This document shows, piece by piece, positions 10,230-49,660 of a stretch of 64,000 nucleotides of DNA. The notes beneath the pieces were generated by a model, which worked only from the letters and a program-made list of their open reading frames with translations, searched no databases and was not told the DNA's origin. Each line of letters opens with the position of its first letter. The first letter of the stretch is position 1. The DNA lies in contig OX597822.1 of the NCBI GenBank assembly GCA_951406725.2, positions 26,536,001 to 26,600,000 of the forward strand, read 5' to 3'. Source of the stretch: Octopus vulgaris. Its lineage: Eukaryota. Both the position numbers and the translations under genes were made by a program.

Positions 10230-11708
10230 ACTGATAGATATGGCGGAAAGGAGACTTTCCTCATGTAAATAATCTAATCTAGCCAAAAACAAAAATGCAG
10301 CCCAATCAAATACGCTCAGTTATACCAATAGAGCTCTCAGGCTTTATAAGTGACCAACTCCATATTTGATACTATCAAAAAGAACAATGGTTCATGATAT
10401 ATGTGGATTCCTAAATGCCTAAACTCTTTAGTAATGGAAGGCAAGGTTTATGATATCCGAGGAATATCATCTTCTTCCATCATCTTTTTCTTGTTCTTTA
10501 TGAAGTTCAGGCTTTCGGCAGGCGAAGAGAAAAGACTTCAGGCATAAATGCTATTTACAACTGGTTTAGTTACAGGAAAGGTGAAGGGTGCTGCTCACAG
10601 CTACCATCTTAAGCTCCGAATAGTGTGGGCGCATTGCCTCTGGAGATAGATAGGCAGAAAGAGCTGCCTGTGTTGGTGTTCAGCCAATGCTGCTGTCTAA
10701 TGGCGCCAAAAGAGAAAAGACAGAACTGAATCGATTTTCCGTCTACATCGTTCCCATCGCGAGCCTCGTTGTTATCTCGCGCATGGCAAATGGATGCAGG
10801 TGAGGTATCGCTCCAGTCTCGGAGATGGCAATGGCTGCCGCGAGATGTCATCCAATATGGCGCTGGCTGTTTGTGCCGCTATAACTCCTTGCACGGATAA
10901 TATGAAATATTTAGATAGATATCCAGGAAAACTGATAGAAAATAAACTAGTGAAGATGCTAACCCAATGTACAAAAGGAGTAAGTCCGAAGATGAAGAAC
11001 TTCTAACCAAGATACCAACTGAGAAACGACGAGGAAGTTCAGATTGACAACAATTGGGTCATACTTTACCGATCACTGTCGCTAAACGACCTTGACTCAC
11101 GCATGAATGTCGAACTCTCTCACCTATTCTATGCATTTAAATATGTGTAACATGTGCTACAAAGGATCTGTCACCGCTGTGTATGGTCTTCAAAAACAAA
11201 ACACGAACAATGAAAGTACCCGAGGCCTAGATGGGAAAGTACGGGAAAGCAACAATGATTTGTTTAAACTTCTCATTTTTAAATATATATATATATATAT
11301 ATATATATATATATATATATATATATATATATATATAAAATGAGATAGGGGTTGAAAATTCAACCCACCATGGGATAATATATATCCAATATACTGCTAG
11401 ATAGGTACCCAACAAAAATAATACATAGATGTTAAAAATTGTCAAGCAATCAGTTCATCTATTGTATTAAATGGGTAAAGGTAATAATATTACCGTAAAT
11501 TAATACTACAAAATTAGAGAATGGAGAAACATACTTAAATCAGTAAAACATCAACTATCCGATGATACTCAATCCATACTTTAATACACCATTACATATG
11601 AGTAAAGGCAATATATAAAATGAAATGAGATATACAGTAATAGTAAAAGTAAAAAGATAAAGAGATATAAGTAAAAAATTTCAAATATAATATGCAAATA
11701 AATCAAAA

Positions 11709-11816
11709 CTGACAGCTGTTTCGGCAGTGAGGACAGTCATACCTCATTTAACCTATAAGCCATAAAGGCAGGTATAAATGAGGCATTAACAAGGATGCCC
11801 CACGGCCTCTTCAGAG
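11709..11816 (-). ncRNA. Hammerhead ribozyme motif (mirror copy of 12716-12823)
   Basis: Reverse complement in the left arm of the palindrome. Confidence 0.7.
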
Positions 11817-12715
11817 AATTAAATTAAATTTGTTATAATAGTGAAAAATATTATATAATCATATACATATAAATATAAAAATATAAAAATGTAAAATATA
11901 AAAACTTATATATCATAATGCTACACTTATATAATATAATACACATTTGTACAAAAAGGAAGGTAAACAGAACAATATAAAACAAAATATATAACAGTGT
12001 ATATATTAATATTAATAAGTACCGATATTATACATATTTGGCTAATAGTTTTTTTTATAAAAAAAGGCTAACACATATGGAGATGAAAAATAATAATTAA
12101 ATCCGTGGTACAGTTCATAAAATTCTAAAGCTATAAAAGTTAATAAAAATTACTATTAATAATAATAATAATAATAATAATAATAATAATAATAATAAAA
12201 ATAATAATAATAAAAAAATACTAAAAATAGATACAGTTAAGTTAGCACCAAGTCCATCCTTTCAAGCTTGAAAGGATGGACTTGGTGCTAACTTAACTGT
12301 ATCTATTTTTAGTATTTTTTTATTATTATTATTTTTATTATTATTATTATTATTATTATTATTATTATTATTATTAATAGTAATTTTTATTAACTTTTAT
12401 AGCTTTAGAATTTTATGAACTGTACCACGGATTTAATTATTATTTTTCATCTCCATATGTGTTAGCCTTTTTTTATAAAAAAACTATTAGCCAAATATGT
12501 ATAATATCGGTACTTATTAATATTAATATATACACTGTTATATATTTTGTTTTATATTGTTCTGTTTACCTTCCTTTTTGTACAAATGTGTATTATATTA
12601 TATAAGTGTAGCATTATGATATATAAGTTTTTATATTTTACATTTTTATATTTTTATATTTATATGTATATGATTATATAATATTTTTCACTATTATAAC
12701 AAATTTAATTTAATT

Positions 12716-12823
12716 CTCTGAAGAGGCCGTGGGGCATCCTTGTTAATGCCTCATTTATACCTGCCTTTATGGCTTATAGGTTAAATGAGGTATGACTGTC
12801 CTCACTGCCGAAACAGCTGTCAG
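12716..12823 (+). ncRNA. Hammerhead ribozyme motif with long stem II
   Basis: CT-CTGAAGA-GGC.GTGGGG...GCCTCATTTA...TAAATGAGGT...CCTCAC.GCC-GAAAC-AGCT-GTC-AG. Stem III is the palindrome ACAGCTGT; stem I is only about 2 bp. Confidence 0.7.
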
Positions 12824-13080
12824 TTTTGATTTATTTGCATATTATATTTGAAATTTTTTACTTATATCTCTTTATCTTTTTACTTTTACTATTACTGTAT
12901 ATCTCATTTCATTTTATATATTGCCTTTACTCATATGTAATGGTGTATTAAAGTATGGATTGAGTATCATCGGATAGTTGATGTTTTACTGATTTAAGTA
13001 TGTTTCTCCATTCTCTAATTTTGTAGTATATATATATATATATATATATATATATATATATATATATATATATATATATT

Positions 13081-14250
13081 CAGGGTGCGTAAGGTATTTG
13101 AAGACATACCTTTTTGGGTCATTGCTGTATTTTTGGCTTACTCAGTATATCTTTGTTTCAGAAAATAATAATGGCAGACCCTCAGCTTACTCAAGAAGTG
13201 AAGAGGCATGCTGTCATTGTGGTTATAAAGGCTGAGTATAGATATTTAGAAATATCTCGATTTTTAAAAGTTGCCAGATCTTTCGTCTACAAAGTTTGTA
13301 AGTAGCTAGAGACTGAAGATGGAAATGTATCACTAGTATCAAAGCATAAAAAGCATTCTAAACACTCTGAAATCATCAGAATACTTGAATTTATCTAGCA
13401 AGTTCAACAGACCGTTGATTACAATCCCAGAAAGTGTATGAGGCCGATTGCAAAAAATCTCCATGTGTCAGAAGGAACAGTCAGAAAAGTTGTCCACGAA
13501 GATATCAGATATAAGTTTTATATAATGAGGAAAGGACAATTTATCAGAAAAAGCAAAAGAAAGTCACTACAACGGATCTAAAAGGCTCTTAAACAAACTG
13601 AAAAATCCAGAAGATGTGATTTGATTTTTCTCAAACGAGAAAAACTTCGACCAAAATCAAAAAGTTAACAGAAGAAATGACAGATGGTTATGTGCAGATC
13701 CTTCTGAAGTTCCAAGTGTTATGCACACAAAATTTCATGTAACTGTCATGGTTTTAGGGGTTGTCTACATTGAGGTCCTGGAAATAATTGTTAAGTCTTG
13801 GATAGACAATGTATGCAATGGAAGGGCATATGTGTTTCAGTAAGGCTCTGCACTATCACACATGGCTCCAGTAACACAGGAATGCATGGCTGAAATTTTT
13901 CATGATCACATAACCTCCTAATTTCTCAAACCATTGGATTATTACATGTGGAGCGTTGTTGAGAGAGAGGTCAATGAACATGCCCATAACAGCAAAGATT
14001 CTTTAAAAGCTGCCACAGTCAGAGTAATGTCCGAAATGGACCAGAACCACTTGATTCGAGCATGTACATGATTTAGATCTCCTATAGAAGCAGTTGCTGA
14101 AGCTGAGGGTAGCTTTATTAAATAACATTATAGAAAAGAAGGTTTATTTTTATCCTCATAGCATTTAGTGATAAATAAAGTTATTATCTGTTATTATATA
14201 GCTGTTTTTTTTATAAGCATAAATTTGTCCTCAAATATTTTACGCACCCT
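13081..14250 (+). mobile_element. Tc1/mariner superfamily transposon, maT/DD37D-like, defective
   Basis: ~26-bp TIRs (CAGGGTGCGTAAGGTATTTGAAGACA / TGTCCTCAAATATTTTACGCACCCTC) enclosing a broken transposase. Confidence 0.88.
13171..14123 (+). pseudogene. Transposase pseudogene
   Basis: MADPQLTQEVKRHAVIV..., FFSNEKNF, NRRNDRW, VMVLGVV, YVFQ*GSALSH, PLDYYMWSVVE, IEAVAEAEGSFIK*; several stops and frameshifts. Confidence 0.85.
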
Positions 14251-47884: not shown

Positions 47885-48126
47885 ATATACATGCACATAT
47901 ATAATTATAAATTTACATCTCTTTATATATGTTATGTATGTGTATATATATATATATAAATATATATATATATATAAATATATATATATATATATATATA
48001 TATATATATATATATATATATATATATATATATAATATTAATTCGAGACAAAACCACTATTTTGCAAAACAAACAAGGAAAGACTTAATCAATACATAAA
48101 AATTTTAATATAAAATAAATAAACCG

Positions 48127-48170
48127 CCACTACAATCGTTTCATGTCTTCAAATGACATTCGTCAGGTGG
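48127..48170 (-). ncRNA. Minimal hammerhead ribozyme motif (mirror copy)
   Basis: Exact reverse complement of 48341-48384. Confidence 0.88.
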
Positions 48171-48340
48171 ATTTCCGATCTTCTAATCAGTTTTAATTTA
48201 TTAATTAGCATTGCACAAAAAAATAATAATGACCTGTATATATCAAATTACATACAGGCATATATATATATATACATACATACATACTTGTGTGTGTGTG
48301 TTTGTTTTTGCTAATTAAAACTGATTAGAAGATCGTAAAT

Positions 48341-48384
48341 CCACCTGACGAATGTCATTTGAAGACATGAAACGATTGTAGTGG
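48341..48384 (+). ncRNA. Minimal type-I hammerhead ribozyme motif
   Basis: CCAC-CTGACGA-ATGTC-ATTTGAA-GACAT-GAAAC-GATT-GTA-GTGG; all three stems are Watson-Crick. Confidence 0.88.
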
Positions 48385-49660
48385 CGGTTTATTTATTTTA
48401 TATTAAAATTTTTATGTATTGATTAAGTCTTTCCTTGTTTGTTTTGCAAAATAGTGGTTTTGTCTCAAATTAATATTATATAATATTTTACTATAAAATT
48501 GGATTTAATCCTAAATCTGATTTTTTTCCCTGTAAATTTGGATTTATTCCCTAATATTTATTATCATATATATATATATATATATATATATATATATATA
48601 TGCAAAAACAAACACACACACACACAAGTATGTATGTATGTATATATATATATATATATATGCCTGTATGTAATTTGATGTATACAGGTCATTATTATTT
48701 TTTTGTGCAATGCTAAATTTATATCACAATAGGTCCTCTAAATGTGTTTAGATTAATCTATGGAGAGCAGAAGTGAAAGACGACTTAACATTTTAAAATA
48801 GATTTATTCTCAAATGGTTAATTTTTATCTTGTCTTCTGTCATTGCATACACAGCTTAGATGTGATTCCAGAGTTCTTGAAATGTATCTTGCAGCTGCTT
48901 TTCAATTCTAACTTGAATTATATTAATTATTGTTGCATGCACATCTTCTATAGTTTAGTTGAATACGCGGTAGTCGTTAAATGTCCACCTAAAGTAAAGG
49001 TGAAGCTACTTTTAAATATAATATTTGAATTTTATTATTGCACATTGATTTTATAAAATGATCCTATATATGTATAGATATATCCATGTGTCTGGGTATC
49101 TGTATATCCATGGATATCTTCTATCATTACCGGTTTCATTCATGTAACTGCAGCTATGCTGGGGCACCACCTTGCCTAGTCAAACCCTTCAATTTTTTTA
49201 AAACCTAGTTCTTATTCTATCAATCCCTTTTACTAAACTGCTAGGTTACAGGTAAATCTACTCAAAAGGTTTTGGTTGGCTGAGGCTATAGAAGAAGAGA
49301 CTTTCCCAAGGTTCCACACAGTGGGACTGAACCCAGAATCATGTGGTTGGGAAGTGAGGTTCTTACCACACTGTGACACCTGTGCCTATATGCATGCATA
49401 TGGTTATAATCATCATCATCGTCTTCATCAACATTTAGTGTCTGTTTTCCATACTCTCATGGGTTGGGCAGCTTGGCAGGAATTGGCAAGGCAAGGACCT
49501 TCACTGGGTTCCATAGCCTCTTTTGGCTCAGTTTCTACAGCTGGATGCCCTTCCTAATGACAGCCACTTAACAGAGTGTGCTTTTTATGTGGCACCATCA
49601 CGAGTGCCTTTTATGTGGCACCAGCACCAGTACTTTTTATATAGCATGACCACCACACCT

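What the first reader, a model, noticed from the sequence alone, without database searches (positions are those of the whole stretch)
11339..48566. Shared polarity rule: all three inverted pairs point their ribozyme-sense 3' ends outward into (TA)n
Seen: at 11339-13029, 14766-15450 and 48034-48566 the right arm has the hammerhead on + and the left arm on -. One arm ends earlier than the other, and the inner junctions differ (0 bp, ~100 bp, ~110 bp). Established: Penelope elements often show inverted pLTR structures. Inference: (TA)n is self-complementary, so both strands offer the same nick and primer, allowing two opposed target-primed reverse transcription events or twin priming joined at their 5' ends. 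Recurrence in three unrelated families argues for a mechanism rather than an artefact.
Basis: partly seen in the sequence, partly recalled or inferred. Interest (0 to 1): 0.72.

Follow-up and report, generated by a model that had tools for sequence, protein, structure and literature searches.

The report
Two-start rule in Penelope palindromes
These mirror-image repeats are insertions of Penelope-type jumping genes in a back-to-back layout already described in print, but the two halves almost always end at two different fixed points, which suggests the element likely copies its RNA from both cut DNA strands in one event.

Summary
All three pairs are head-to-head (hammerhead sense pointing outward), and the same holds elsewhere in the genome: 94 outward pairs joined within 150 nt against 2 inward, and 7 of 7 outward in an unselected 800 kb. 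This polarity and a one-sided 'tail' are already published for Penelope-like elements (PMC3846280, PMC8557442).

Each family has two fixed 3' ends, A and B (B = A plus a 51-169-nt tail), and 94 of 94 tight pairs have one of each. Either arm can reach further 5' (44 vs 28). Family 2 pairs in unique DNA carry target duplications, so (TA)n self-complementarity is not required.

Best reading (inferred, about 0.7): one concerted insertion in which both nicked strands prime reverse transcription, one at each start site, probably on one RNA, and the cDNA ends are then joined. Family 1 has Hydra-clade protein motifs. I found the mechanism in none of 7 literature searches. This scan has noted it repeatedly on other DNA, which is not independent support.

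The parts
11283..11337 (.). (TA)n target, left of locus 1
11334..12266 (-). Family 1 arm ending at site B (carries the 169-nt tail, about 11334-11502)
   Evidence: 99% to a 5.6-kb tandem unit
11711..11814 (-). Type I hammerhead motif, family 1, left arm (85-nt stem II region)
   Evidence: cleavage untested
12267..13029 (+). Family 1 arm ending at site A; blunt join to the left arm, both arms start at the same base
12718..12821 (+). Type I hammerhead motif, family 1, right arm
   Evidence: cleavage untested
13027..13079 (.). (TA)n target, right of locus 1
14761..15157 (-). Family 2 arm ending at site B (51-nt tail); reaches about 108 nt further 5' than its partner; hammerhead core at 14971
15163..15449 (+). 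Family 2 arm ending at site A; internal tandem duplication 15197-15278; hammerhead motif 15289-15322
15446..15481 (.). (TA)n target, right of locus 2
47924..48038 (.). (TA)n target, left of locus 3
48029..48204 (-). Family 3 arm ending at site A; hammerhead core at 48166
48205..48311 (-). Junction filler: inverted copy of the right-hand host flank
   Evidence: 92% to 48602-48716
48313..48568 (+). Family 3 arm ending at site B (83-nt tail, about 48484-48568); hammerhead core at 48345
48602..48716 (+). Host flank that matches the junction filler
6752..6959 (+). Family 4 solo arm ending at site A, hammerhead core at 6830; its family obeys the same pair rule elsewhere

Best explanation
Each palindrome is likely one concerted insertion in which the element's protein nicks both target strands and both 3' ends prime reverse transcription, one at RNA start site A and the other at site B one tail-length downstream. 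Shown: head-to-head polarity, the one-A-one-B rule, free 5' reach of either arm, short overlaps or fillers at the junction, and target duplications where the target is unique. Inferred: a protein dimer holds one RNA with the tail between its two active sites; the B-primed enzyme usually displaces the A-primed cDNA, so the arms overlap in sequence; both cDNAs often run off the same RNA 5' end; their 3' ends are joined by 0-6-nt microhomology or templated filler, sometimes copied from nearby host DNA. Polarity follows because every cDNA is anchored to the target by the element's 3' end. Solo arms would be events in which the second priming failed or left nothing detectable. The two-primer core is about 0.8 likely; the single-RNA part about 0.6.
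For: A+B in 94 of 94 outward pairs within 150 nt and 104 of 105 within 1 kb, four families (F1 35/35, F2 20/20, F3 37/38, F4 12/12; binomial p 5e-30 at 0.5). Of 13 predictions noted before reading new DNA, 11 were met with the predicted end, 1 had no partner and 1 failed; the rule held across 5.6-kb tandem units. Unselected 800 kb: 7 of 7 same-family pairs outward and A+B. 5' reach: A further in 44, B in 28, equal in 11 of 83; some arms do not overlap at all (L097, L117). Away from the 5' hot spot, 8 of 18 F1 pairs start within 70 nt of each other (permutation mean 0.83, 0 of 20000 reach 8). Arms share rare variants: 0.77 per F1 pair vs 0.01 per comparison with other copies. Overlap of 2 nt or more in 30 of 49 blunt-or-overlap joints vs 0.20 expected; 27 of 76 joints have inserted bases. 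Target duplications in 7 of 20 F2 pairs vs 3 of 380 controls. In vitro, a Poseidon PLE cleaves and extends both strands, starts at two internal RNA sites that bound the tail, and is predicted to be a dimer (PMC11167929, parts 1-2 of 4 read).
Against: All evidence is from finished insertions; no intermediate was seen. PMC11167929 found no difference in start site between top and bottom strands in bulk, and did not score coupling per molecule. Few B arms stop at the A site, as a collision would predict: 7 of 169 within 10 nt. Among F1 pairs with identical arms, B reaches further in 8 and A in 3 of 13, against 7 and 7 of 15 in diverged pairs: a weak tilt towards fold-back plus later deletion. Shared variants could come from one source locus or gene conversion, and show no A>G editing signature (4 of 33). 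One failed prediction: L103 has a second A arm 3.86 kb away across non-element DNA. One A+A pair of two short pieces 566 nt apart (L156). The sample is the top 29-40 candidates per search, not a census.
Confidence: 0.7

Rival explanations
1. Self-priming or fold-back: one strand is made first, folds back at a palindrome and is copied (the model of PMC3846280); the hairpin is resolved at two staggered sites (tail origin suggested in PMC8557442); later one-sided deletions blur the junction.
For: Explains polarity, equal 5' starts (locus 1, L073), shared variants and, with staggered resolution, the A+B rule. Weak tilt towards B reaching further in the youngest F1 pairs (8 vs 3 of 13).
Against: A single hairpin fixes which end type has the longer 5' reach; both signs are common (44 vs 28; 33 vs 17 by more than 50 nt). 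An A arm cannot template the tail. Asymmetry does not grow with arm divergence (Spearman -0.14, p 0.49, n 28), and 11 F1 pairs keep both arms over 1 kb with junctions of 23 nt or less. In vitro the two tail boundaries are RT start sites (PMC11167929).
Confidence: 0.12
2. Concerted two-strand priming by an asymmetric complex that carries two separate RNA molecules, one held at A and one at B.
For: Gives the A+B rule and overlapping arms with no need for strand displacement; fits the scarcity of B arms stopping at A (7 of 169).
Against: Does not readily explain matched 5' ends away from the hot spot (8 of 18 vs 0.83). Shared rare variants need both RNAs to come from one source. Needs an unexplained source of asymmetry.
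Confidence: 0.13
3. Two independent, equivalent insertions at a self-complementary (TA)n site.
For: All three window pairs sit in (TA)n; solo arms of both end types exist.
Against: Predicts about half A+A or B+B pairs; 0 of 94 seen. Pairs also form in unique DNA with one target duplication around both arms.
Confidence: 0.02
4. Assembly or library artefact (read fold-back).
For: Locus 1 is a near-perfect zero-spacer palindrome; its junction could not be checked against reads.
Against: Fold-back artefacts would not stop at two fixed element positions, give non-overlapping arms, diverged arms or target duplications. Short-read contigs of two runs show 4 left-arm-to-right-arm joints from other loci of family 3 and no other joint type was listed (single contigs; the runs may include the assembled individual).
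Confidence: 0.01

Closest known systems
Insertions of endonuclease-bearing Penelope-like elements with inverted pLTR and one-sided tail (Pen2a_Av, PMC3846280; Fig. 2 legend of PMC8557442)
   Same: Head-to-head inverted 5'-truncated copy, tail at one end, partial tandems, target duplications, microhomology at 5' junctions.
   Different: Here the tail rule is counted and is near-absolute (94 of 94); tails are 51-169 nt, not 30-40; both signs of 5' reach occur, against the published self-priming model.
Hydra clade of PLEs (PMC8557442, section 11 read)
   Same: Family 1: C-terminal GIY-YIG-type domain, RWR and DKT motifs, CxCx5C linker, CxxC and CxH, no CCHH, hammerhead, (TA)n target. Family 4 shows a similar endonuclease end.
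   Different: Unit is 5.6 kb against the reported under 3 kb, with a long Asn-rich insert; no phylogeny was built; no ORF was linked to families 2 and 3.
Poseidon_Ac in vitro system (PMC11167929)
   Same: Two internal RT start sites bounding the tail; both strands cut and extended; AT-rich target.
   Different: Different clade; the passages read do not link the two sites to the two strands or to inverted insertions.
LINE-1 twin priming (recalled, not read here)
   Same: Second target strand primes on the RNA, giving a 5' inversion joined by microhomology.
   Different: In L1 the second priming site varies and the arms barely overlap; here both sites are fixed and the arms usually overlap for hundreds to thousands of bases.

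Membership tests
EN+ Penelope-like element | RT plus GIY-YIG endonuclease ORF in the hammerhead sense | tested here: met
   Family 1 long copies carry RT-like and GIY-YIG-like frames on the hammerhead strand (two frames in these copies); family 4 carries the endonuclease end. Motifs read by eye; Pfam and PDB gave no hit.
EN+ Penelope-like element | ORF linked to families 2 and 3 | tested here: inconclusive
   All sampled copies were under about 450 nt and 265 nt; no long copy found in 53 and 52 regions. They work like PLE ends; their autonomous partner is unknown.
EN+ Penelope-like element | Partial tandem forming a pseudo-LTR | tested here: met
   Family 1: L091, L092, L230-L234, L240.
EN+ Penelope-like element | Inverted 5'-truncated copy and one-sided tail | tested here: met
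EN+ Penelope-like element | Type I hammerhead motif in the pLTR | tested here: met
   Core plus stems I and II in all four families by motif scan or by eye; below Rfam thresholds.
Hammerhead ribozyme | Self-cleavage | not testable with these tools
   needs an assay
Hydra clade | RWK-like and DKT motifs; CxCx5C linker; CxxC and CxH; no CCHH | tested here: met
   Family 1 translations against the text of PMC8557442 section 11; RWR in place of RWK; supplementary alignment not seen.
Hydra clade | Generally under 3 kb | tested here: not met
   Unit 5602 nt; the paper says 'generally'.
Hydra clade | RT phylogenetic placement | not tested
   no tree built
L1-type twin priming | Variable internal second priming site and nearly non-overlapping arms (recalled) | tested here: not met
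   Second site is fixed and arms mostly overlap; works like twin priming, is not the L1 form.
MITE / DNA transposon with terminal inverted repeats | Fixed unit with matching ends | tested here: not met
   Ends differ by a tail and junctions differ from locus to locus.

The most novel reading that the evidence does not exclude
Two-site twin priming is the normal integration route of endonuclease-bearing Penelope-like elements: a dimer of telomerase-related RT grips one RNA at two fixed start sites, uses both nicked target strands as primers at once, and the tail, the inverted pLTR and the head-to-head polarity are all footprints of that single step.
Probability: 0.5. Interest if true: 0.75.

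Novelty: new variant of a known kind. Interest (0 to 1): 0.55.

Why it matters
How Penelope-like elements make their tandem and inverted structures is named as an open question in PMC8557442, and the published model is antisense self-priming (PMC3846280). The one-A-one-B rule, with both signs of 5' reach, argues against that model and ties the two in vitro start sites of PMC11167929 to the two target strands. It gives a per-molecule prediction that the existing in vitro assay can test directly. If true, these telomerase relatives attach both ends of an insertion by priming, and they seed animal genomes with long palindromes.

Tried and rejected
Rfam: no hammerhead at gathering score or E up to 1 in the window; small-region searches gave one weak hit, E 7.6. 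Pfam and PDB searches of family 1 frames: nothing. RNA-editing barcode: no A>G excess among variants shared by both arms (4 of 33 private in F1). Collision signature: only 7 of 169 B arms start within 10 nt of A, not convincing. Generic hammerhead scan of 800 kb: too strict, 5 hits; family references were used instead. Host-flank capture as a general source of spacers: only 2 of 24 spacers of 55 nt or more matched their flanks closely (window locus 3 and L148, the latter a common repeat); L156 gave a 70% match. Tail folding: z -4.1, -1.5, -1.7, -2.4, no shared structure established. No RNA holder listed on record: no evidence on expression. Reads did not cover the locus 3 junction itself, and locus 1 has no read check. 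Shared upstream sequence for full-length family 2 and 3 copies: only microsatellite, other repeats or partner arms. Literature: 7 searches found no paper proposing two-site twin priming for PLEs; Arkhipova 2006 and Evgen'ev and Arkhipova 2005 were not read and may discuss it.
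Full report
Observation. The three inverted pairs exist as described. Hammerhead cores lie on + in each right arm and on - in each left arm (for loci 1 and 3; by eye for locus 2). Rfam does not score them. The junctions are of three kinds: a blunt join with both arms starting at the same base (locus 1); a longer left arm plus a 5-nt insert (locus 2); and a 107-nt inverted copy of the right-hand host flank (locus 3). 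A fourth hammerhead family has a solo arm at 6752-6959.

What the elements are. The window is G000:C9:26536001-26600000 in a 2.8-Gb genome; earlier notes of this scan call it an octopus, which I did not test. Family 1 is young (40 of 40 scored hits 100% identical to the 171-nt query) and belongs to a 5602-nt unit found in partial tandems. Its long copies encode RT-like and GIY-YIG-like frames on the hammerhead strand, so hammerhead sense is element sense. The motifs match the text definition of the Hydra clade of Penelope-like elements (PMC8557442 section 11), apart from length. Family 4 carries a similar endonuclease end. Families 2 and 3 were found only as short copies.

Polarity across the genome. 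Seven searches gave 209 loci, each search scoring only its best 29-40 candidates, and 40 longer stretches were added. These merged into 194 regions. Arms were hits of at least 30 bits and 75% identity that include the 3' region. Outward pairs: 94 joined within 150 nt, 11 within 151-1000 nt, 1 further apart. Inward neighbours: 7 in all, 2 within 150 nt; one is two complete outward pairs sharing a (TA)n run, the other an 18-nt piece. Direct neighbours: 9. The counts include the three window pairs; the A end of locus 1 was set by hand. In 800 kb taken without regard to content, 7 of 7 same-family pairs were outward; one inward adjacency was between two different families.

The two-end rule. Every family has two fixed 3' ends, A and B, separated by a tail of 169, 51, 83 and about 150 nt. 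All 94 tight pairs and 104 of 105 pairs within 1 kb have one of each. Three of the seven searches were seeded with tail sequence, which excludes A+A but not B+B in those loci. Thirteen predictions were noted before new DNA was read: 11 met, 1 without partner, 1 failed, L103 with a second A arm 3.86 kb away. All 7 pairs of the unselected survey were A+B. In that survey 8 of 13 generic inverted repeats with (TA)n on both sides were flush on one side and 36-144 nt short on the other, and none was flush on both, which suggests further families follow the rule.

Junctions. In 83 pairs with gaps up to 40 nt, the A arm reaches further 5' in 44, the B arm in 28, and they are equal in 11. Some B arms are tail only. 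Away from the 5' hot spot, 8 of 18 family 1 pairs start within 70 nt of each other (permutation mean 0.83). Of 76 joints at 90% identity or more, 49 are blunt or overlap (30 by 2 nt or more, expected fraction 0.20) and 27 have inserted bases; some short inserts may be alignment-edge mismatches. Arms of a pair share rare variants more than other copies do in families 1, 3 and 4, not clearly in family 2. Seven of 20 family 2 pairs are bracketed by 8-14-nt duplications, against 3 of 380 controls. Many arms start at a family-specific hot spot next to a TCAT word (11 of 99 family 1 arms at one base); reading it as a transcription initiator is my inference from recall.

Mechanism. Shown: polarity, the A+B rule, free 5' reach, microhomology and fillers, target duplications. 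From the literature: a Poseidon PLE cuts and extends both strands, starts at two internal sites that bound the tail, and is predicted to be a dimer (PMC11167929, parts 1-2 of 4 read). Inferred: both nicks prime in one event, one at A and one at B, probably on one RNA; cDNA 3' ends are joined afterwards. Independent events are excluded by the end-type counts. Fold-back (PMC3846280, passages and Discussion read) predicts one sign of 5' reach and survives only with frequent later deletions. Asymmetry does not track arm divergence (p 0.49) and multi-kilobase palindromes persist, but the youngest pairs tilt weakly its way (8 vs 3 of 13). A two-RNA asymmetric complex is not excluded. An artefact is very unlikely (and the end rule).

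Comparison and novelty. Head-to-head polarity is stated in PMC3846280; the inverted copy and the tail at one end are in PMC8557442 (passages and section 11 read; supplements not seen, and they may hold counts that bear on this). Passages of 10.64898/2026.07.22.740005 and PMC12910113 added nothing. Seven searches found no paper proposing two-site twin priming for these elements. This scan's earlier notes reach the same reading on other genomes and other families here; my reading was recorded before I saw them, and they are not independent evidence.

Verdict. Real feature, known layout, sharper rule than published, and a mechanism that an existing assay can test. Interest 0.55.

Noticed in passing
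window 48205-48311 and 48602-48716: The junction filler of locus 3 is an inverted copy of the adjacent host flank, implying a cDNA end switched onto nearby target DNA during joining.
   Followed up: partly
window 13081-14230: Decayed DNA-transposon-like element right after locus 1; one frame gives a weak Tc3 transposase HTH hit (E 0.004, below cut-off).
   Followed up: partly
window 6592-6699: A 108-nt segment between two (TA)n runs just upstream of the family 4 solo arm; it did not match the family 4 reference and is unexplained.
   Followed up: partly
window 36264-36649, 51931-52316, 10042-10229: Another young dispersed repeat (97% over 386 nt).
   Followed up: no
L091, L092, L246: Long Asn-rich low-complexity insert between RT and endonuclease regions in families 1 and 4, like the inserts described for Adineta Penelopes (PMC3846280).
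   Followed up: no
L103, L091, L140, L101, L092: Tandem arms extend upstream of the presumed transcription start, up to about 8 kb, so some templates are read-through or multimeric RNAs.
   Followed up: partly
L249, L079, L133: Junction inserts of 23-32 nt built from repeated copies of neighbouring element sequence, resembling templated end-joining.
   Followed up: no
G000:C2:100070469-100071341: A family 3 pair and a family 4 pair sit side by side in one (TA)n run.
   Followed up: no
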